IMG/VR virus record: IMGVR_UViG_3300017963_000201
Span: 80,960 to 144,959 of that record
DNA length: 64,000 nt
DNA from: a virus
Direction: 5' to 3' (one strand)
The notes under the pieces were generated by a model, which did not search any database, was not told the origin of the DNA, and saw nothing but the letters and a program-made list of their open reading frames with translations. Both the position numbers and the translations under genes were made by a program. Below are positions 11,997 to 36,588 of the stretch, piece by piece (position 1 is the first letter of the stretch; each line of letters opens with the position of its first letter).

Positions 11997-13133
11997 CTAC
12001 AGCCGCGAACCGTAGGCAACACCAGCAGCATTGCCAAGGTACATAGAGATCAGCTCATAGAAGAACCAACCCTCGCGGGGTCTACCTTCCATGAATTCAT
12101 CCGTGGGTTTCGAGAACAGCTCAACCCGGATAGGCATGCCACCCAGGTACTCAGGAGCCGCAACACCGTAAACCTCTCCCGGACTCAAGATCTCATAGGT
12201 GTTTGTGCCAGCGGTCGTAATAACCATAGCATTGAGAATCACACCGATATAACCAGCAAGAATTAATTCACGTTGCGCAATCGGGTCTACCTGCTGGCTT
12301 ACGGTGGTTACGAGATCAGAGATCTCTTGACGATGGACGATGAATTTGTCCAAGACAAGGCGATGCCGTTCAACCTGATATCGAATACTCTCTAAGGCAG
12401 CCAGGTTCAGAGCCGCAAAGAAAGTAGTCGTATTAGCCGCATTCGCGCCAGCGGCAAACAGGTTAATCATAGCCAGGTCTTCTTGGTATTCGATGGCTTG
12501 ACGTGCCTTATCTTGCGCTCGTTGCACGATATCAAACTGTGCGCGGAACTTATCCTTGATCTCAATCGAAGGATAGGCGGTAACTTCAAACTCCGGTGGG
12601 TAGTAGTAGCGACCCTCAACTACGCTCTGTGGAGTCTGACCATCCTCGGCAATCTGAAAGCCAAGGACATACGGATCTTTATCATAACGAATAACATCGC
12701 CTGATCCTACGGTACGGGGCATCCAAACTTTTCGAGCAAGACCCTCGTAGTCAATCACTTCTTTGATCACGTTGATTATGCCCTGGCCAACCATCCTAAA
12801 TCCCTGAGACGTGGGATCCGAGAAAGCCTCTTTCAAGATAGCTTCAGCTTCGGCATCCTCCATACCATCTGAAAAAGAAGCTTCACGAGCAATCTGATAC
12901 TTACCACTCGCAACACCGTCCAATACGCCTTGGATCTTATCCAGAGCTTCTGGGTTATTGGATGCATTCAGCTCGCCATGCTGACTAAATAAACGTTCGG
13001 AAGAAGACTCAGGACGCTTACCGTTCCGAGCCACCCTACCGAAACTAGGCGGATTGAATTCGTCTCCCGTCCGCTTGTCAATAGAGACCGTGGCAGCGGC
13101 GGCTTTTTTAAGATACGGATTATTGAAGCGCAT
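11997..13133 (-). CDS. major capsid protein (HK97 fold, Bxz1-like)
   Basis: GQGIINVIKEVIDYEGLARKV, FEVTAYPSI, AQDKARQAIEYQED, C-terminal GWFFYELISM...N..GVA; AGGAGGA RBS; canonical protease-scaffold-decoration-capsid order. Confidence 0.88.
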   Translation of the reverse strand: MRFNNPYLKKAAAATVSIDKRTGDEFNPPSFGRVARNGKRPESSSERLFSQHGELNASNNPEALDKIQGVLDGVASGKYQIAREASFSDGMEDAEAEAILKEAFSDPTSQGFRMVGQGIINVIKEVIDYEGLARKVWMPRTVGSGDVIRYDKDPYVLGFQIAEDGQTPQSVVEGRYYYPPEFEVTAYPSIEIKDKFRAQFDIVQRAQDKARQAIEYQEDLAMINLFAAGANAANTTTFFAALNLAALESIRYQVERHRLVLDKFIVHRQEISDLVTTVSQQVDPIAQRELILAGYIGVILNAMVITTAGTNTYEILSPGEVYGVAAPEYLGGMPIRVELFSKPTDEFMEGRPREGWFFYELISMYLGNAAGVAYGSRL

Positions 13134-19813: not shown

Positions 19814-21670
19814 TTACCCCGATCCTGTTAGCAAATTTGCCCCTCCCTTCGGAATTAACCTCTCTATATTATCTATACGCTTCTTAGTATCCCCATCTAC
19901 AGGCCCATTACTCTTAATAAGATCTAGAACGTCTTGCACATGAACCCGATCATCCATTTCTGCTAGTTTAGAAATCTGGTCCTCCAGATCCTCTGCAAAT
20001 TCTTTAGTAATCGAGCTTTGCTTCGAAGCCCCAGGTAAGGGCAAAGGTGATGCCCCACCGCCTCCACCGCCCCCAGGGGCACTTCTAGGGGCTCTAGGGG
20101 CCGGTCCTGGAGCTTCCTCACCTTCCTCCTCACTTTCAGCTTCAGGGAAAAACTCAGGATGGTCTACTACGTATTGTCGCTCTTCTTCCTGATTCTTACG
20201 CTCAACATCCAGGTCAACACCCGCACCCTGAGAGTATGTTCTGTCAGAAAGAATACCTCTATCCTTAAGATCTCGCCACACACCCAGGATAGAAACATCT
20301 TGACTTGGATCTAGGTTTTTGCGCCACTTAATAGTAGGTACCAAAGGATCTTTAGGTCTTTGTACTCTGATCCTGTTTTCTAATTCTTTTTCTGGGGTCT
20401 TATAAAAATCGTGCATTTCCGCAATAGGAACACAAAGTTTCTTTATGATCCACTCTTGCTCAAAAAGCATACGGATTGAAGCCAACCTTTCAAGCAAGGT
20501 CTGAAGACCCGCAATAGCAGCCGCGAATGAAGCCTCACCTATCAAAAAGCTCTTGGCAATACCCATCGCCAACAGTTTGATACGCTCGATAAAATCCCAT
20601 TCACGAGAGATCAATAAAACCCTATCGCTTACTCCGACTAACTCAACACTTAAAGCATTATGCGTGATGATGGCAGCCAAAGGATCCGACTCTGCCAAAC
20701 TTAGCTGATACGCTAAGGCTTCTTCGTCTTCTTGACTACCTAACCACCCTGTCGCCGGATCACCCAATTTGAAAATTCTTAATGGAGCTGCATGTCTTTG
20801 TGCAATTGCCAAAGATGCATTAACTACAAAGTCTTCGTACATAGTGGTACGATATAGTCTTGTATAGAAACTCGTTCCACGTATATCTGTAGAATTAATC
20901 TTACGCGCTAGAAATGTCGTGTTCAAAGACTCCAAAGGAATAGCTCGATTCATCCTAAAAGCATTCATAATGTCTCTAGGTATGAATTTTTGAAGTCTCC
21001 TAAACAAAGGGTCCTGCGCGTTTACGAGTTTTCGAATCTCTGGCGTTGGTAATAACCAAAGCAAAGGTTGTTCTACCGCAAGACCAACACCTTCAATTCT
21101 TACGTAATCTGGATCATGCGGAATAACACGCGCCCATATACCTTCTGTAGAGTCAAAGATAGCATGCAGAATAAGCTCTCCGGTTATCAAGTAATCCCTG
21201 GTAAAGCCCGCGAGCTTTGGGACTAAGTTTAACTTATTAAACATATCCTCGTAAACTTTTTTTATTCCTGGATCATCAATACCAACTAGGTCGAAAGCAG
21301 ACCATGGAAGCTCAGAATACATGTCAGTTGCAATTGACACAACCGCGTCCCTGCGATACATCTCACGCCATACAGCATTTGCTAATCTTCTATTCCTTGG
21401 AAAGTAATATTTATCAGGGGTAGACTTTCTATAATCGTAAAAAAGAGGGGCCTGTGCAACACTGTTACCCCCAGTATTCTCACTTCCATAAGCGTTTGTT
21501 GCGTTCAATTGCCCACGCTTACGCATAGAGCTGTAAAGGGTAAAGCTGTGAGGGGTTTTTGGTGGGCTCTCTACAGCACTACTCTTTTCGTATGGTTGTT
21601 GATCTGCTTGTCTTCTGGGATCCCCATCTTTACCAGGCACAATTAATTGTCCTGTTTTTTTCATACCCAA
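19814..21670 (-). CDS. portal protein
   Basis: 618 aa; 'D.YSELPWS.F', 'RDY...GE', 'RGTS...R', 'P.RIFKLGD...GW' as in Bxz1-type portals; low-complexity acidic/Pro/Gly C-terminus. Confidence 0.85.
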   Translation of the reverse strand: MGMKKTGQLIVPGKDGDPRRQADQQPYEKSSAVESPPKTPHSFTLYSSMRKRGQLNATNAYGSENTGGNSVAQAPLFYDYRKSTPDKYYFPRNRRLANAVWREMYRRDAVVSIATDMYSELPWSAFDLVGIDDPGIKKVYEDMFNKLNLVPKLAGFTRDYLITGELILHAIFDSTEGIWARVIPHDPDYVRIEGVGLAVEQPLLWLLPTPEIRKLVNAQDPLFRRLQKFIPRDIMNAFRMNRAIPLESLNTTFLARKINSTDIRGTSFYTRLYRTTMYEDFVVNASLAIAQRHAAPLRIFKLGDPATGWLGSQEDEEALAYQLSLAESDPLAAIITHNALSVELVGVSDRVLLISREWDFIERIKLLAMGIAKSFLIGEASFAAAIAGLQTLLERLASIRMLFEQEWIIKKLCVPIAEMHDFYKTPEKELENRIRVQRPKDPLVPTIKWRKNLDPSQDVSILGVWRDLKDRGILSDRTYSQGAGVDLDVERKNQEEERQYVVDHPEFFPEAESEEEGEEAPGPAPRAPRSAPGGGGGGGASPLPLPGASKQSSITKEFAEDLEDQISKLAEMDDRVHVQDVLDLIKSNGPVDGDTKKRIDNIERLIPKGGANLLTGSG

Positions 21671-23876: not shown

Positions 23877-24860
23877 CTAGTGTTGATAATCAATAACACC
23901 TAAATTTCTAGTATACATATCGTCTATATCATAAACCACTAATCCGTCATTAGTAATCACAGCAGAAGGATCAAAATGATCCCCAAACCAATTAACCAAT
24001 TCATAGTTGTCAAACGCTTCTGCAGATTCTACTATATTTTTTGGGTTAAATTCCATACTCAAAGATTTAATAGAATCTTCATAATCATCATCCGGGTTTC
24101 CTTCTCTCTCTATGTATTCTTCTATGTATTCTGGTAAAATGTTTCCACTAAAAAAGTCTTCAGTAATAGCTTTAATCACTAGATTTAACATTTGTGGCTC
24201 ATTCATATTAATAAGTCTAGCATTAGGCTTTGGCTGAATAAGCCATACACCACCATCTTCAGTAGAGTACTGAATACCAACATCCCAACTTTTGCTGCAT
24301 AGGATAATGTGACCCGTATTTAGGTCGTGTCTACTAGACCTACCATGGATCCAAACATCTTTAGGTAAGGGATCAAAAGGATTTATATCCTGTATACCTA
24401 CGCTACCAAAAAATCCTTGTCTTAAATACTTTCCCTTTCGTATAATTTCTACCAATTCTAACTCATCTTCACGACCCGTCATAGGGACGATATAAACTGT
24501 TCCCTGCTCATCTATGTCTTCGCAACCATCGAACCCCATTTTTTTACCACACTCACCCCGCTTACCCTGAAGCCACCACGAATCTTCCGCGTCTGCTTTG
24601 TCGTGATACTCTGATGCTCTTCCATCAAGTATCTTTTCTGCAGTTTCTAAATCAACCCTAAAGCGTTCTGCAATATCGTTAATAATCTCTTCGTCGTATA
24701 ACTTATACACAGGCACACAATCGAAATCCGCTTCATACACATAAACAGTAGAACTTTCTGTCATCATATAAATACCATCAGAGAAGAATAAACAATCACC
24801 CGCTACACCAAAAGGGTTAATATCACCCTTCTCTATAGGTTCTGGGCTAGTATGAATCAT
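23877..24860 (-). CDS. AcrIF11-like ADP-ribosyltransferase domain fused to a second ART-like domain
   Basis: HTSPEPI...GV.G..LFF...W.LQ..RG.....G.....DEQGT matches my recollection of the AcrIF11 pattern; second domain HG...S....V..QY...G.V. Confidence 0.65.
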   Translation of the reverse strand: MIHTSPEPIEKGDINPFGVAGDCLFFSDGIYMMTESSTVYVYEADFDCVPVYKLYDEEIINDIAERFRVDLETAEKILDGRASEYHDKADAEDSWWLQGKRGECGKKMGFDGCEDIDEQGTVYIVPMTGREDELELVEIIRKGKYLRQGFFGSVGIQDINPFDPLPKDVWIHGRSSRHDLNTGHIILCSKSWDVGIQYSTEDGGVWLIQPKPNARLINMNEPQMLNLVIKAITEDFFSGNILPEYIEEYIEREGNPDDDYEDSIKSLSMEFNPKNIVESAEAFDNYELVNWFGDHFDPSAVITNDGLVVYDIDDMYTRNLGVIDYQH

Positions 24861-25113
24861 TACTACTCCTCAGGAGTAATAACATCTAGCAAATCGTTTA
24901 GCTGCACAGACATTTGATCCGCATGGTCAGCTAAAGAATCCGTAATCTCTATCGATGCTTCACCTTGATCCAATAGCTTCTCTATTTTTTCTTCGTTCAA
25001 CTCTTCTTTGGCCATACCTAGTAGCTTTTCTACAGAGGCTACCAAAGATCCAGAGATCTCTTGGATCTTAGTTTTCAATTCCATTATGTTTTTGATTTGT
25101 GTTTCCATTTTTA

Positions 25114-27110: not shown

Positions 27111-27644
27111 TTAGGACACTTCAACAGAAGAATTAAGCTTAATACCAAGGGCTTTGCAGCTACCACCAGGAATTTCCAAAACACCACGAACCCTATCACA
27201 AGACCAATGCTCTCGGGCACCCGGTTGGGCATTATGGATAATCTTGGCCACCTTGAGACCTAGAATGCTATCCTTGATAAACAGGATGTCTATTGGAAAG
27301 CCCACAGAGCCCATATGGAACGTTACGTGGTCCCCACCAAAGGGAAACCACATCCCCTCGTCTTCGGCAAGGCTAGAGACCACTTCTAGCCCTCGGGCTT
27401 TTTGCCAAGCCGTCGAAGCTACGGTCACCCTAAAATTGTAATCATTTACCTTGACACGCTTGGTAGCTTTTGGTAAGAAGCTAAGATTCCTGACAGGCCA
27501 CCAAGATCCATCCACATAGGCATAGATACTCGATGTGGCTTGGACTATACCCTGCTCACCGTTTGGCAAAATAACTTCCATACCTTTTTCTATAAAAGGT
27601 ACATGGGGTCTCTCAGGATTTCTAAAGTTTACTTTGTGGCGCAT
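27111..27644 (-). CDS. DUF192-domain protein with N-terminal SH3-like domain
   Basis: VA.T...KARGL....L..DEGM.F.F, FHM..V.FPIDILFI, VLEIPGG.....GI. Confidence 0.85.
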   Translation of the reverse strand: MRHKVNFRNPERPHVPFIEKGMEVILPNGEQGIVQATSSIYAYVDGSWWPVRNLSFLPKATKRVKVNDYNFRVTVASTAWQKARGLEVVSSLAEDEGMWFPFGGDHVTFHMGSVGFPIDILFIKDSILGLKVAKIIHNAQPGAREHWSCDRVRGVLEIPGGSCKALGIKLNSSVEVS

Positions 27645-27767
27645 TCATTCCTCCACAGTACCAAGGTTTCTGGTATTCATAGAATCCACGTCATAAACTA
27701 CAAAGCCCTCGTTTGTAACTACCGCCGATGGATCAAAAGGTTGTATATATTCCAACGATTCAGTCAT
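27645..27767 (-). CDS. 40-aa fragment paralogous to the C-terminus of 23877-24860
   Basis: FDPSAVVTNEGFVVYDVDSMNTRNLG vs FDPSAVITNDGLVVYDIDDMYTRNLG. Confidence 0.7.
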   Translation of the reverse strand: MTESLEYIQPFDPSAVVTNEGFVVYDVDSMNTRNLGTVEE

Positions 27768-28009
27768 AGTAATTGCTTAAGCAAACCATTCTTCGCCAAA
27801 TTCCTCGGCATATAATAAAGCCATTTCGTTAAGGACCTCCTCAAAAGAATCCACACGAATAAAAGAGATATTAAAACCTAAAGATTTGGCTAAAGCCTTA
27901 ATATCTCCTCTATCTCTTAGGTTGCGACCTGACCAATCGATTACAAACTTTGCTTGCCCATTCTCACTAACCACGGCCACATCCATACCAGTGTCTATGT
28001 ACGCTTTCT

Positions 28010-28318
28010 TCATCCCAACACATCCTGTTCCCAATATTCTCCACCAAGAGCATTAATAACACGCTCTTGTGTTTTATTAATTATGTCTTTCACAAAGTCA
28101 AACTCCGCACCTTTAGGGTGAGTGAATATAGAATTAATGTAATTACCGACCCGAAGGGCAGCATCGTCTAAGATTAACTTTGTAAGTATACTCACATGAT
28201 GTTCTACATAATCCTTCCATTCTTGATCCGTAAGGTGAGCATATTCATCCTCAGTATCAAATATGCCCGGTGTATTGTACTCTCTTTGGGCTATTCTATA
28301 CATGTTACGCTCCCTCAA
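28010..28318 (-). CDS. AQ-tagged protein
   Basis: MYRIAQ near N-terminus. Confidence 0.65.
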   Translation of the reverse strand: MRERNMYRIAQREYNTPGIFDTEDEYAHLTDQEWKDYVEHHVSILTKLILDDAALRVGNYINSIFTHPKGAEFDFVKDIINKTQERVINALGGEYWEQDVLG

Positions 28319-28749: not shown

Positions 28750-30708
28750 TTAATCCTCCACACTTTCTAATTTTGATACATCACCACCATCTGATTCATA
28801 AGAATCAAATGTCTCAAGAACTAATTCACCATTTTCATATAACCCATCTGAACCCCTAGTTAGATAAGGACGATCCCAACCCATCTGATCACACATATCA
28901 TAAAATTGATCTTCAGTTATAATATAGGGATCCTATGAGTAATGATCGCTCACAAGAACATACTTTTGATCTTCTTGAGCTAGAATTCTTAATGCTTTAT
29001 TTAGTTGTCTTTTTGCACTACCCTTTAATACATCCCTGTCACCATTTTCATAGATCACTTCTACCCAAACATCACCTTTACCCAGCACTCTTTCAAGTGA
29101 CCTTTTTGCTTCTAATGCAGTTTCTTTATCCCAAGTTGTAATATAGGCATCGTCACAATATAGCTTTTTTCCTGCATCTTCTAATTCATAACAAACATCT
29201 TGATAATTTCCATCAATTGCATTTTTACCAACGACATGGTATTCTACTACATTTTCCTTTTGTGCTTTCATACCTTTTCTCCTTGAGGCTAATTCTAATG
29301 GTCCCTCATCAGTGTCTTCAAATTCTACAAACTCACGATACTCATGAGTCTTCTCAGGACCCTTGGTGTCTTCTTTAGTTTTCCAAAGTGCATCCCAAAT
29401 AGATTTCAGATGATTCCAAGTTGAGCTTTGTTTTACCGCTTGGATCCATTCTTTGAGATTAGGAAGTTTTGGTTCCCATGCTTGCAATGCCCTAATCAAC
29501 TCGTTTTGCTCCCCGGCAAAATCCAAGGCTTGAGCACCCCTACTTAGCATATCCGATATACTTCTGTTTTTGTACATCGGGATGTCAGTAGGCCCGCTCC
29601 AAAGATCGTCCTCAACCTTGGTATAGTTTCGGTTCTTTACTTTGACGTTTGTACCAATTGGAGCTTTATCTACATCAACTTGGGCTCTTCTTCTATTTGC
29701 TCTTTGTACCGTAACAGGATAAAAGCCGTACCCCTCTAATTTTTGTTCTGCTTCCTGTAAAGAATCTGCGTCTACTATATTACCGTCCGCATACTCAACA
29801 AAATAATATGGCCCTTTCTTTATAATCCAGGCATCTTCATCTTCGGTACGCCACTTGCTAATAGTCTCTTCGGGAGCAAACTCTTTAATCACTTTGCCGG
29901 TATTAGCATCAAAAATACTTAAATCTTCTTTGAGCACATCAATGTCTTTTGCCAATAGAGCATAGGCTTCTTCAGCTTGCTCCAAGTTATCATAATCCTC
30001 TTCGTACAGAATCTCACCATGCCCCTCCCCCGGAACTAAGCCAGTAATCGCTACCGTATATTGATCAGGGTATTTTTCACTCCTAGGTGGCACATGGAAA
30101 AAGTCATCGTGACCTTGGGCTCGCTTACGCATAACGGATCCTTTCTTTAGTTTTCTACGCTGTTCCCGCAATGATTCCACTTCGTTTTGCGGAAGCAAGG
30201 TACGCAACTTCCTAAGAGCACTTCCGGGAGATGGGTTATCGATAGCCAAAAATAAATCGATTGCTTCCTGTATCTCAGAATCCTTAATGAGTTGGGCGCT
30301 CTCAAACTTATCTATATACCCACGCGCTAAATTACCAACATACGCATCTATAGTCTTATCCCCCCGATCCTTTGCTGCAAACCACCTATGCTTACCATCT
30401 AGTATAATAACATCCGGAGGAACACCATGGGTACCAAACTCGCTCTGAATTCTTCCTACATTATTAATATTAATATCTACTATTATAGGACCTTCTGACA
30501 TAGATTTGCCATCTTCAACCAAGGTAACCGGAGCTACAGAGTCTATAGGTATAGTATCAAGATAAAAGACATCACTTTCGATCCAATAATCAGCAAGATC
30601 CTGCGCGTCTTTACCCAAGTTGTAATACTGATCAGCTAAAATTTGTGCTACTTGATCTTTATCTATACTATTAGACAATATTACCTTCCTCGTCGAATTC
30701 GTAGTCAT
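28750..30708 (-). CDS. multi-domain polyprotein-like ORF (N-terminal ParB-like domain), interrupted by TAG at 28933
   Basis: IILDGKHR ParB/Srx motif; linkers RKRAQ, RRRAQ, RGAQ, MKAQ, RILAQ; frame continues 60 codons past TAG to a TAA just before the next ATG. Confidence 0.7.
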
Positions 30709-34668: not shown

Positions 34669-36588
34669 CTACACGAACCTCTTTAGTCGAATAACTCTAA
34701 GGGAGGGCCTTGGGTTTGCTTTTCGGATCATACTAACTTTATGTCTGTCCTGTATAGCTTTGTTAGTAAAGACCCTCTCGGGAGTCTTTAGTAATCTATG
34801 AACCCCAATATAACATTGGATCATATCGTTCGATCCATCACTTCTGTGGTCTACCTTGACTCCATTATCTTGCAAACCTCTAAGCTCTCTTAGAGCTAAA
34901 GAACAAGGCATATTTCTGTGATAATAGGGATCTAGTGCGGGATGTTCTTTAGCCGGAAAACTTAATTTATTATTACGCATACTTTCTAAAAACTTAATAT
35001 GATCATCCCGATCTATATCTTTACCCATGGCCAAGATTCCTACATTTCTTAGCCTATCAATTTGTTCCATTGAATTCCAACGGTCATAGGATACATACTT
35101 AATAGTTAACTTCTTATGTAGCTCCAATATCAAATCTGTCATCGCAGGAAAATAAACTTCTCTTGGCTTTAGCTTTTGTTTATTCCCCTTGGGGATCGGC
35201 TTCAAAGTCACAGCACCGTCTATGATAACTTTATCTTCTTCGAGGTGTCCTATACATAAACAAAAGCTATCCTTCTTTTTTCCTGGATCACAATGTATAG
35301 CATACTCAGCTAAGTTTTTATATTTTACGTTTTTTATTTCTAGCCCAATATAACTAAAGATAACATTCCCAACCTTCATATCGAAGTACTTCTCACCATA
35401 ATCAAAAATAGAAAATCTAGTATTGTCTGTACAGGCTTCTATAATTCTCGTATCTCGAATAAAAGGATTCTCCGCACCAGGGGGGTTAGCACCGTAATCC
35501 CTTTCGGCACCCAAGGGATCATCCTCAAATTCGTCTGCCAGGTCCTCTTGAGTAATCTCAGGATTTGCTTCCCAGGTAGCTTTCCTAAAAGCAAACATCT
35601 TGTGCTGTCTTTGCGCTTGCTCTAACAATTGCATAATCTTATCGTCTTCAAACATCGGACTCGATATACTAATCATCCTGGCATCGGGTAAATTATAAAT
35701 ACCAAGCTCCCGTGCCCTTCGTACAGCAGAGCTAATCGTTCTAAGGGATCTCTTGAGTACCCTGTAGACTTCCTGAGCGCTTTTCTTACTGTCTCCCGTA
35801 TCAAATCTTGCCAGCTCGTCAATGATCGCAATCAGTCGTGTTTTACCGGCCAGGGAAGCTGAGTTAGAATGCAAAGCCTTCAAAGCTAGATTTTTATACT
35901 TGAAGTGGATTTCTTTGTCGGTTTCTTTATAGAGCTTACCTGTCTTGTACTTAGGGTGCGTCTTTTCTAAAGTCTGTAGCTTTTCTTTGAGATCCTGAAA
36001 CCAGGGGCTCTCTTCGTAAAAAGCCCTAAAGTGCCCCCAGACCGTCTCAGAAGCCTGTTGGGCACTCGTAGCGACAAAGGCTATATCCAAGGTCTGCCTT
36101 TTGATAACTCGTAGCCTAGACTGAAGATCTGGGGTACAGAGCGCGTCGTGGACTAGCCCAGCAGATAAACAACCTATGGTCACACCCTTGCCCGAGCGCA
36201 TCCCCTCGCATCCAACGAATTCATTGTAGAAGCTCAGATCGTCTACTATATCTGATTTCTTTAGCCCACAATTTGGACAAACCTCATACTCAAATAATAT
36301 CTGATCTCTTCTGGGAACATCATTTATAGTACGGATTCTCTGTACGTCGTTACACATGGGGCAGAGTAATTCTAAGAAGTCCCTAATTACTTCGTACTGA
36401 ACCGGCCAAAGCTCAGGACCATTAAGGTATTCTGGAGATTCTATAAAATGGATTACGTTGGGTGCGCGTTTGAGGGTGACAAGATCCGTAGTTACTAAGT
36501 TTGACGATTGAGTAATTTTGCCCTCAATCATGTCATCTAGATCTGCAAATAAATTATCTCTAGCTACATACTCCATATGACTTAACAT
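34669..36588 (-). CDS. terL: terminase large subunit
   Basis: Walker A GMRSGKG, Walker B IAIIDE, ISSP, TWEANP, nuclease HCDPG...D, YDRWNS, KVDH...GSND. Confidence 0.93.
   Translation of the reverse strand: MLSHMEYVARDNLFADLDDMIEGKITQSSNLVTTDLVTLKRAPNVIHFIESPEYLNGPELWPVQYEVIRDFLELLCPMCNDVQRIRTINDVPRRDQILFEYEVCPNCGLKKSDIVDDLSFYNEFVGCEGMRSGKGVTIGCLSAGLVHDALCTPDLQSRLRVIKRQTLDIAFVATSAQQASETVWGHFRAFYEESPWFQDLKEKLQTLEKTHPKYKTGKLYKETDKEIHFKYKNLALKALHSNSASLAGKTRLIAIIDELARFDTGDSKKSAQEVYRVLKRSLRTISSAVRRARELGIYNLPDARMISISSPMFEDDKIMQLLEQAQRQHKMFAFRKATWEANPEITQEDLADEFEDDPLGAERDYGANPPGAENPFIRDTRIIEACTDNTRFSIFDYGEKYFDMKVGNVIFSYIGLEIKNVKYKNLAEYAIHCDPGKKKDSFCLCIGHLEEDKVIIDGAVTLKPIPKGNKQKLKPREVYFPAMTDLILELHKKLTIKYVSYDRWNSMEQIDRLRNVGILAMGKDIDRDDHIKFLESMRNNKLSFPAKEHPALDPYYHRNMPCSLALRELRGLQDNGVKVDHRSDGSNDMIQCYIGVHRLLKTPERVFTNKAIQDRHKVSMIRKANPRPSLRVIRLKRFV

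What the first reader, a model, noticed from the sequence alone, without database searches (positions are those of the whole stretch)
23877..24860. AcrIF11-like ADP-ribosyltransferase fused to a second ART-like domain inside the cargo cluster
Seen: residues 1-~140 have H-T-S-x-E-x-I, GVxGxxLF and WxLQxxRGxxxxxxG...DEQGT; a basic linker (RKGKYLRQG) leads to a second HG...S...Y domain. Known: AcrIF11 ADP-ribosylates the type I-F Csy complex. The motif match is from memory and needs confirming. Inference: a virion-delivered anti-CRISPR or other anti-defence ART, with no aca regulator beside it.
Basis: partly seen in the sequence, partly recalled or inferred. Interest (0 to 1): 0.75.

Follow-up and report, generated by a model that had tools for sequence, protein, structure and literature searches.

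The report
Phage protein with two ADP-ribosyltransferase domains
A large uncultured marine phage encodes one 327-residue protein that joins an AcrIF11-family anti-CRISPR enzyme domain to a second, uncatalogued ADP-ribosyltransferase-fold domain otherwise found in proteins that phages pack into their heads, an AcrIF11 arrangement not found elsewhere in the databases searched.

Summary
The ORF at 23877-24860 (minus strand, 327 aa) is real, has a ribosome-binding site, and occurs unbroken on five independent metagenomic contigs.

- **N-terminal domain (residues 1-138):** it is an AcrIF11-family ADP-ribosyltransferase (ART). It scores 92.7 bits against NCBIfam NF052490 (cutoff 50). The two solved AcrIF11 structures are its best structural matches (Z 9.8 and 7.8). 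The catalytic D117/E118 and H3 are conserved.
- **C-terminal domain (residues ~161-327):** it belongs to no Pfam family. It defines a family of about 119 clusters that occur alone or inside giant "polyvalent" phage proteins, including MuF, portal, LPD and ddrB-ParB fusions. Its model (pLDDT 87) matches almost only ART folds, including AcrIF11 itself (Z 6.3). It keeps the family's H-G-R, S/T, Y and D residues.
- **The fusion:** the combination was found only in this phage lineage. Stand-alone N-domain homologues number in the hundreds.

The most likely function is a two-headed NAD+-dependent anti-defence effector. One head would target type I-F Cas8f and the other an unknown host target. It is made with the head genes and is possibly packaged. 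Enzyme activity, targets and virion delivery are all untested. I rate it a new variant of a known kind, of moderate interest.

The parts
23877..24860 (-). Whole gene: 327-aa two-domain protein (P0001) plus stop codon
   Evidence: The same protein occurs on 5 contigs.
24866..24871 (-). Shine-Dalgarno-like GAGGAG, 5 nt before the ATG. The upstream gene's stop codon is 2 nt before the ATG.
   Evidence: Read from the sequence.
24447..24860 (-). N-terminal domain, residues 1-138: AcrIF11-family ADP-ribosyltransferase
   Evidence: NCBIfam NF052490 at 92.7 bits against a cutoff of 50. PDB 8dwq at E 7e-9. AF2 model with pLDDT 93.4. 6kyf at Z 9.8 and 8dwq at Z 7.8. Foldseek prob 1.00 for both.
24507..24512 (-). 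D117-E118 of the DEQGT motif. These are the counterparts of catalytic D146/E147 of AcrIF11_Pae2 and D115 of AcrIF11_Pae1.
   Evidence: HMMER alignments. Invariant in 29 homologues. Role of these residues taken from bioRxiv 10.1101/2024.08.26.609590.
24381..24440 (-). Basic, probably flexible linker, residues 141-160 (RKGKYLRQGFFGSVGIQDIN)
   Evidence: pLDDT below 50 for residues 141-152 in the C-domain model. Stand-alone N-domain homologues end at this point.
23880..24380 (-). C-terminal domain, residues 161-327: ART-fold domain of H-Y-D type with no Pfam family. It belongs to a family found alone or inside polyvalent proteins.
   Evidence: 119 representatives. Model with pLDDT 86.9. ART folds dominate the VIA, Foldseek and BFVD hit lists. 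Architectures.
24339..24347 (-). H172-G173-R174 at the end of strand 1 of the C domain
   Evidence: H in 102 of 106, G in 106 of 107 and R in 95 of 107 family members. Strand position.
24267..24269 (-). Y198, following strand 2 and a short helix of the C domain
   Evidence: Y in 108 of 109 family members.
23946..23948 (-). D305, in the turn between the last two long strands. It is the topological counterpart of D117/E118 of the N domain and the candidate catalytic acid.
   Evidence: D 72, N 20, E 7 of 113 members. Secondary-structure order compared.

Best explanation
The gene encodes a single polypeptide with two ADP-ribosyltransferase-fold domains joined by a short basic linker.

The N-terminal domain is a member of the AcrIF11 family with all catalytic residues intact. 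By homology it uses NAD+ to ADP-ribosylate Cas8f (Csy1) of a type I-F CRISPR surveillance complex in its host, probably a marine gammaproteobacterium, and so blocks target DNA binding.

The C-terminal domain is a second ART of the H-Y-D kind that Aravind's group described for phage and plasmid 'polyvalent' proteins. It retains the family's conserved H-G-R, S/T, Y and D residues. It most likely modifies a different host macromolecule that is still unknown.

The gene sits in the co-directional block between the large terminase and the portal. Its C-domain family is repeatedly fused to head-internal proteins (MuF, portal). The protein is therefore probably made late with the head proteins, and it may be packaged and injected with the DNA.

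Shown here: the domain identities, the conserved residues, the rarity of the fusion and the gene's location. Inferred: enzyme activity, both targets and virion delivery.

My odds: two ART-fold domains 0.9; N domain is an active AcrIF11-type enzyme 0.8; it targets type I-F 0.55; C domain is catalytically active 0.6; the protein is packaged in the virion 0.35.
For: - **N-domain membership:** NCBIfam AcrIF11_anti equivalog at E 3.7e-26 and 92.7 bits against a cutoff of 50. PDB sequence hits are 8dwq at E 7e-9 and 6kyf over the catalytic motif.
- **N-domain structure:** the model has pLDDT 93.4. Its two best structural matches are 6kyf (Z 9.8, rmsd 2.8 over 115 residues) and 8dwq (Z 7.8), above all other chains. 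Foldseek gives E 7.7e-5 and 1.7e-4.
- **N-domain catalytic residues:** D117/E118 align with D146/E147 of AcrIF11_Pae2, and D117 with D115 of AcrIF11_Pae1. H3, W95-Q98 and DEQG are invariant among 29 homologues.
- **C-domain family:** 119 representatives, 54 of them at E<=1e-10.
- **C-domain fold:** the model has pLDDT 86.9 and pTM 0.83. About 36 of the top 38 VIA matches are ART folds. They include the cyanophage A4 ejection protein (Z 7.1), AcrIF11 6kyf (Z 6.3), diphtheria toxin (Z 6.2) and ParT (Z 6.1). BFVD matches include several 'PolyVal ADP-ribosyltransferase' entries. The nearest ESM Atlas clusters carry PF18760 and PF26151.
- **C-domain residues:** the family-conserved H172, G173, R174, S189, Y198, D284, D305 and G306 are all present. 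This matches the H-Y-D configuration described for polyvalent-protein ARTs (PMC5512222).
- **C-domain architectures:** the family occurs in proteins with LPD1/23/38, ddrB-ParB, ART-PolyVal, PBECR5, MuF and portal domains.
- **Gene location:** between TerL (34669-36588) and the portal (19814-21670). PMC9503650 links such a position to head packaging of ARTs.
Against: - No biochemical or genetic data exist for this protein or for any member of the C-domain family.
- The N domain is only 23-28% identical to the two tested AcrIF11 proteins. The helical region thought to set target specificity is the least conserved part of the family. The target could therefore differ.
- The host is unknown, so the presence of a type I-F system could not be checked.
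- The C domain has no sequence-profile match to PF18760, to AcrIF11 or to any solved ART. Its structural Z scores (at most 7.1) lie in the range the tool calls middling.
- D305 is D or E in only 70% of the family. I could not superpose coordinates to confirm which acid faces the NAD site.
- The protein has no N-terminal extension that could be a capsid-targeting peptide, because it starts exactly where stand-alone homologues start. It has no A/S-Q motif of the kind proposed for neighbouring 'cargo' ORFs (read; note e1-5825923).
- Promoter and terminator scans show nothing above chance, so expression timing is inferred from position only.
Confidence: 0.55

Rival explanations
1. The protein is a two-ART host-takeover or general effector, not an anti-CRISPR. 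The AcrIF11-like subfamily in marine phages would ADP-ribosylate something other than Cas8f, for example RNA polymerase or translation factors as T4 Alt, ModA and ModB do, or another defence system. The second ART would widen the target range.
For: The N domain shares only 23-28% identity with tested AcrIF11 proteins. The helical target-recognition region is poorly conserved across the family. No aca-type HTH gene lies beside it. Its position in a late structural block resembles T4 Alt-type head-packaged ARTs. The host, and therefore any type I-F system, is unknown.
Against: The curated equivalog model for AcrIF11 is passed by a wide margin. The two AcrIF11 structures stand clearly above every other ART in the structural ranking. 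Close stand-alone homologues (60-71% identity) occur in Vibrio, Shewanella and Pseudoalteromonas. From my own knowledge, type I-F systems are common in these genera.
Confidence: 0.25
2. The C-terminal domain is a non-catalytic pseudo-ART. It would serve as a docking, packaging or substrate-binding module that brings the AcrIF11 head into the capsid or onto its target. Only one enzymatic activity would then be present.
For: In 28 of 35 mid-size relatives the domain sits at the C-terminal end behind unrelated N-terminal modules, as a common handle might. The strand-5 acid is not invariant (D 72, N 20, E 7 of 113). In this protein D218 of the family consensus is N and A195 is G. The best structural match is a structural ejection protein. 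The most conserved block (NPxxIVxSAxxxDN...W) lies in the helical insert and not at classical ART catalytic positions.
Against: H172 (96%), R174 (89%), S/T189 (98%) and Y198 (99%) are conserved at the positions where ARTs bind NAD+, and all are kept here. In P0036 the domain follows MuF, in the position that effectors occupy in MuF fusions. Thirty-eight representatives are stand-alone proteins with nothing to dock.
Confidence: 0.15
3. The C-terminal domain is an NAD+-consuming or small-molecule or nucleic-acid-modifying enzyme rather than a protein ART. Models would be RES/MbcT NADases, Arr or DarT. It might, for example, destroy NAD-derived defence signals or modify DNA or RNA.
For: ParT (Z 6.1), RES (5.7), MbcT (5.6), Tpt1 and Arr are among the structural matches, at scores close to those of the protein ARTs. 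The HGR triad with a conserved Arg differs from classical H-Y-E protein ARTs.
Against: Scores do not discriminate between ART subfamilies. AcrIF11 and diphtheria-type protein ARTs rank slightly higher. The literature groups polyvalent-protein ARTs with protein-modifying clades.
Confidence: 0.12

Closest known systems
AcrIF11 (AcrIF11_Pae1, PDB 6KYF; AcrIF11_Pae2, PDB 8DWQ): an enzymatic anti-CRISPR that ADP-ribosylates Cas8f N250 of type I-F
   Same: Residues 1-138 pass the NCBIfam equivalog model. They share the fold (Z 9.8 and 7.8), the N-terminal His and the catalytic D-E loop.
   Different: Known AcrIF11 proteins are single-domain proteins of about 130-170 aa, often next to aca genes. Here the domain carries a 187-aa C-terminal extension with a second ART fold, lies in a head-gene block and has no HTH neighbour. 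Identity to the tested proteins is only 23-28%.
ART-PolyVal (PF18760) / Tox-ART-HYD2 ARTs of polyvalent proteins (Iyer et al. 2017, PMC5512222)
   Same: The C domain has an ART fold and an H (strand 1), Y (after strand 2), D (before strand 5) pattern. It occurs alone, in several-domain proteins and in giant polyvalent proteins with LPD, ddrB-ParB, MuF and portal domains.
   Different: No member of the C-domain family tested reaches PF18760 or any other Pfam model over this domain. It has a conserved HGR triad and a long conserved helical insert (NPxxIVxSAxxxDN...W). It appears to be a separate, uncatalogued family.
T4 Alt and MuF-ART fusions (head-packaged, injected ARTs)
   Same: An ART encoded among head and packaging genes. 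Relatives of the C domain are fused to MuF and portal domains.
   Different: There is no sequence relation to Alt/VIP2 ARTs, no MuF or portal domain in this protein, no recognisable capsid-targeting peptide, and no virion proteome.
Cyanopodophage A4 ejection protein in the pre-ejectosome (PDB 9K3A chain B, about residues 1424-1608)
   Same: It is the best structural match of the C domain (Z 7.1) and also matches the N domain (Z 4.6; Foldseek rank 3). It is a protein shown by cryo-EM to sit inside the capsid (PMC12002296).
   Different: The similarity is at fold level only (12-13% identity). That protein is over 1,700 aa and structural, and its paper does not describe an ART domain.

Membership tests
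AcrIF11 family (NCBIfam NF052490 / Pfam PF26151) | Profile match above the curated cutoff | tested here: met
   92.7 bits against a cutoff of 50, E 3.7e-26, residues 2-125 covering model positions 4-142 of 142. PF26151 is precomputed for this protein.
AcrIF11 family (NCBIfam NF052490 / Pfam PF26151) | Fold of the solved AcrIF11 structures (ART beta-sheet core plus helical insert) | tested here: met
   AF2 model with pLDDT 93.4. 6kyf at Z 9.8, rmsd 2.8 over 115 residues. 8dwq at Z 7.8 over 134 residues. These are ranks 1 and 2 of 48,161 chains. Foldseek prob 1.00.
AcrIF11 family (NCBIfam NF052490 / Pfam PF26151) | Catalytic acidic residue(s): D115 in Pae1, D146/E147 in Pae2 | tested here: met
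   D117/E118 align to them and are invariant in 29 homologues. Residue roles.
AcrIF11 family (NCBIfam NF052490 / Pfam PF26151) | ADP-ribosylates Cas8f (N250) and blocks type I-F interference | not testable with these tools
   Needs biochemistry or a phage assay. The host and its CRISPR type are unknown.
AcrIF11 family (NCBIfam NF052490 / Pfam PF26151) | Typical (not defining) form: a single-domain protein, often beside an aca HTH gene | tested here: not met
   The protein is 327 aa with a second domain. The neighbouring small ORFs have no HTH family.
ART-PolyVal (PF18760) / Tox-ART-HYD2 | Match to the Pfam model PF18760 | tested here: not met
   No Pfam hit for the C domain or for 25 stand-alone relatives even at E<=1.
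ART-PolyVal (PF18760) / Tox-ART-HYD2 | ART fold | tested here: met
   About 36 of the top 38 VIA matches are ARTs, with Z 7.1-3.1. The Foldseek PDB list is ART-rich but has no hit at E<1e-3. BFVD hits are named PolyVal ART, with prob 0.92-0.96.
ART-PolyVal (PF18760) / Tox-ART-HYD2 | H in strand 1, Y in strand 2, D in strand 5 | tested here: inconclusive
   H172 ends strand 1. Y198 follows strand 2 and a short helix. D305 precedes the penultimate strand. No coordinate superposition on an NAD-bound ART was possible. D305 is D or E in only 70% of the family.
ART-PolyVal (PF18760) / Tox-ART-HYD2 | Occurs in polyvalent proteins and in MuF or portal fusions | tested here: met
   LPD1, LPD23, LPD38, ddrB-ParB, PBECR5, ART-PolyVal, Portal_Mu, Phage_portal_2 and Phage_Mu_F are found in 24 large relatives. 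P0036 is MuF plus this domain.
Head-packaged, injected phage effectors (T4 Alt type) | Encoded with head and packaging genes | tested here: met
   TerL at 34669-36588, portal at 19814-21670 and major head protein at 11997-13133, all on the same strand.
Head-packaged, injected phage effectors (T4 Alt type) | Capsid-targeting peptide, protease site or fusion to a head protein | tested here: inconclusive
   There is no N-terminal extension relative to stand-alone homologues. There is no MuF or portal domain. The only candidate is the basic linker.
Head-packaged, injected phage effectors (T4 Alt type) | Protein present in virions and released into the host | not testable with these tools
   The phage is uncultured and known only from metagenomes.

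The most novel reading that the evidence does not exclude
The phage packages an enzymatic anti-CRISPR into its head. The AcrIF11 head would be injected with the DNA and would disable type I-F surveillance complexes before any phage gene is expressed. The fused second ART, from an uncharacterised family widespread in polyvalent proteins, would knock out a second host defence. The result would be a pre-loaded, two-target, catalytic anti-defence warhead.
Probability: 0.25. Interest if true: 0.8.

Novelty: new variant of a known kind. Interest (0 to 1): 0.5.

Why it matters
AcrIF11 is one of the few enzymatic anti-CRISPRs and has so far been described as a small stand-alone protein. Here it is joined to a second ART domain and sits among head genes of a large phage.

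This suggests a testable answer to the timing problem of anti-CRISPRs, namely delivery as protein with the DNA. It also links Acr biology to the 'polyvalent protein' theme.

The work also defines an uncatalogued ART-fold family. It has about 119 clusters at 50% identity and no Pfam model. It keeps a conserved HGR...S/T...Y...D signature and a conserved helical insert. Its target is unknown, and it recurs in MuF, portal and polyvalent proteins. This 187-residue version is a compact, soluble-looking entry point for biochemistry.

Tried and rejected
- **Pfam and PADLOC:** Pfam on the whole protein gave only noise (FtsA, cytidylate kinase). PADLOC gave nothing.
- **Phage collection DNA search:** megablast of 11 kb around the gene found no match.
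- **C-domain sequence searches:** a profile search of the C-domain family against PDB sequences gave nothing significant. The best ART hit was TreX at E 1.4.
- **Are the two halves related by sequence?** hhalign of the N-family profile against the C-family profile gave only a 12-column chance match, WWLQGKRG against WYVHGR. The two halves are related at fold level only.
- **Full-length structure:** the joint alignment A5 was misaligned by that same chance match, so I did not fold the full-length protein. The tool would not have reported inter-domain geometry anyway.
- **Other fused forms of the N domain:** the near-length search found only P0002 and P0003, which have unrelated tails. The search among longer proteins found none, which is weak evidence.
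- **AcrIF11 model on relatives:** ten mid-size C-domain relatives gave no hit, and local phmmer and blastp gave none.
- **Related viral loci:** The search for related loci could not use the family alignment. With the single domain it found only an identical copy.
- **Gene neighbourhoods of relatives:** the contigs of the closest stand-alone relatives are too short to read. P0007 lies next to a T4 gp13-like neck gene. The Salicola phage SCTP-2 neighbourhood was uninformative.
- **Expression signals:** promoter and terminator scans found no more sites than in shuffled sequence.
- **85-aa ORF:** the ORF upstream of the 40-aa repeat has no similarity to the C domain.

Full report
**1. What is there**

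The minus-strand ORF at 23877-24860 encodes 327 residues. A GAGGAG ribosome-binding site lies 5 nt before the ATG. The upstream gene ends 2 nt before that ATG, and the next gene starts 12 nt after the stop. The gene is therefore one link in a tightly packed co-directional array.

The window is the last 64 kb of a 144,959-bp IMG/VR virus record that is estimated to be 79% complete. The large terminase is at 34669-36588, the portal at 19814-21670 and the major head protein at 11997-13133, all on the same strand. The gene thus lies in the roughly 13-kb block of mostly unannotatable ORFs between terminase and portal. No close phage relative exists in the phage collection at DNA level. The terminase is only 26-31% identical to those of 200-260-kb phages.

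The same 327-aa protein, or 98%-identical variants (P0243, P0244), occurs on five contigs from independent assemblies. The fusion is therefore real.

**2. The observation**

**3. The N-terminal domain (residues 1-138)**

- It passes NCBI's curated AcrIF11 equivalog model at 92.7 bits against a cutoff of 50 (E 3.7e-26).
- It matches phrog_11282 at E 1e-40.
- It hits the NMR structure 8DWQ at E 7e-9 and 6KYF over the catalytic motif. 8DWQ is deposited as 'H3 protein', and the bioRxiv paper 10.1101/2024.08.26.609590 identifies it as AcrIF11_Pae2.
- In those alignments D117/E118 fall on D146/E147 of AcrIF11_Pae2. D117 falls on chain residue 120 of 6KYF. That corresponds to D115, the residue required for activity in AcrIF11_Pae1, if the 137-residue chain carries a 5-residue N-terminal tag (my inference).
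- An AlphaFold2 model built on 29 homologues has pLDDT 93.4. Its two best matches among 48,161 PDB representatives are 6KYF (Z 9.8, rmsd 2.8 Å over 115 residues) and 8DWQ (Z 7.8). The next match scores 5.7. Foldseek agrees, with E 7.7e-5 and 1.7e-4 and prob 1.00.
- H3, S5, Y31, Y42, W95-W96-L97-Q98 and D117-E118-Q119-G120 are invariant in the subfamily.

The subfamily is large. There are 232 stand-alone proteins of 136-160 aa at 60-71% identity. Where named, they come from Vibrio, Shewanella, Pseudoalteromonas, Oleiphilus and Oceanospirillum. They also occur in the H20-like Vibrio anguillarum phages (67% identity).

**4. The C-terminal domain (residues ~161-327)**

Pfam, NCBIfam, PADLOC and PDB sequence searches give nothing for it. 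An exhaustive phmmer search of 1.84 billion representatives finds 119 relatives, 54 of them at E<=1e-10.

Of the 116 relatives aligned:
- 38 are stand-alone proteins of at most 220 aa;
- 35 are 221-450 aa, and 28 of these carry the domain at the C-terminal end behind mutually unrelated N-terminal parts;
- 43 are longer, up to 4,229 aa.

The long relatives carry LPD1, LPD23, LPD38, ddrB-ParB, PBECR5, ART-PolyVal, ResIII, MuF and portal domains. One 384-aa relative is MuF plus this domain. This is the domain vocabulary of the 'polyvalent proteins' of Iyer et al. 2017, which those authors predict to be packaged and injected with the DNA.

The AlphaFold2 model has pLDDT 86.9 and pTM 0.83. Its VIA matches are almost exclusively ART folds:
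- cyanophage A4 pre-ejectosome chain B, Z 7.1;
- AcrIF11 6KYF, Z 6.3;
- diphtheria toxin, Z 6.2;
- ParT, Z 6.1;
- RES and MbcT toxins, PARPs, exotoxin A, cholix, Tpt1 and Arr.

The Foldseek PDB list shows the same enrichment but has no hit below E 1e-3. In BFVD the model matches a 193-aa viral protein at E 1e-9, the large Pf-WMP3 protein, and several entries named 'PolyVal ADP-ribosyltransferase'. The ESM Atlas places it next to clusters carrying PF18760 and PF26151, which is a lead rather than proof.

The individual Z scores are middling by the tool's own caveat. The near-total ART content of the list and the full-domain coverage are what carry the argument.

Across the family the conserved polar residues are H172 (96%), G173, R174 (89%), S/T189 (98%), Y198 (99%), D218 (84%, N here), D284 (96%) and D305 (D 64%, N 18%, E 6%) followed by G306. 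This protein keeps all of them except D218N and A195G.

The order of secondary-structure elements is the same in both halves of the protein:
- strand 1 ending in His;
- strand 2 ending in Ser;
- an aromatic residue;
- two short strands;
- a long helical insert;
- a strand-turn-strand with the acid in the turn (D117/E118 in the N half, D305 in the C half).

This fits the H-Y-D configuration described for polyvalent-protein ARTs. I could not superpose coordinates, so the assignment of D305 rather than D284 is an inference. Profile-profile comparison finds no sequence relationship between the two halves.

**5. How rare is the fusion**

Among proteins of 179-573 aa, only this protein and two others extend the AcrIF11-like domain (P0002 and P0003, with unrelated tails). 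None was found among longer proteins. None of the C-domain relatives has an AcrIF11-like part. The combination was seen only in this phage lineage.

**6. Mechanism**

The best-supported reading is a two-headed NAD+-dependent effector.
- Shown: two ART-fold domains, intact catalytic motifs, location among head genes, and the association of the C-domain family with head-internal and polyvalent proteins.
- Inferred by homology: the N head ADP-ribosylates Cas8f of a type I-F complex.
- Inferred from family context: the C head modifies a second host target, and the protein may be packaged.

Several points count against delivery. The protein begins exactly where stand-alone homologues begin. There is no virion proteome. 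The neighbouring small ORFs have no HTH family, so no aca gene is evident.

**7. Comparison and novelty**

The N half is a member of the AcrIF11 family, since all testable defining features are met. The C half works like, and keeps company with, ART-PolyVal domains, but it fails the PF18760 model. It is better described as a separate, uncatalogued ART-fold family.

Polyvalent proteins with several ARTs and head-packaged ARTs are established ideas. An AcrIF11 domain fused to a second ART and placed in a head-gene block was not mentioned in the papers I read. I rate it a new variant of a known kind with moderate interest (0.5). If virion delivery of an enzymatic anti-CRISPR were shown, the interest would be high.

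Noticed in passing
window 27645-27767 (-), with 27777-28034 (-) and 27111-27644 (-): A 40-aa ORF repeats the last 31 residues of the ART C domain at 65% amino-acid identity. The DNA differences are mostly synonymous, which suggests that the peptide is under selection. The ORF lies in frame three codons after the TAA stop of an unrelated 85-aa ORF and directly abuts the start of a DUF192 gene. It could be a relic of a second copy, or a tail reached by read-through. This was not resolved.
   Followed up: partly
PDB 9K3A chain B, about residues 1424-1608 (cyanopodophage A4 ejection protein): Both halves of the protein match an ART-like domain in this capsid-internal ejection protein (VIA Z 7.1 and 4.6; Foldseek rank 1 for the C-domain model and rank 3 for the N-domain model). 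The A4 cryo-EM paper (PMC12002296) does not mention ADP-ribosylation. The large Pf-WMP3_26 protein of a related cyanophage also matches in BFVD.
   Followed up: partly
L001 6001-6626 (Vibrio phage VaK, VaK_0051 and VaK_0050): In the H20-like vibriophages the stand-alone AcrIF11-like gene (67% identical) forms a two-gene islet with a 65-aa ORF. The islet is oriented against its neighbours and sits next to the lysis genes. The 65-aa ORF has no HTH hit in Pfam.
   Followed up: partly
window 28933-30708 (-): The 591-aa ORF contains 'ILDGKHRWFAA', which by eye resembles the ParB/Srx motif found in ddrB-ParB domains of polyvalent proteins. Pfam, PHROGs and PDB sequence searches gave no support.
   Followed up: partly
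window 27111-27644 (-): A DUF192 (COG1430) protein at E 1e-19 is the only ORF in the terminase-portal block, other than the ART protein, with a significant family match.
   Followed up: no
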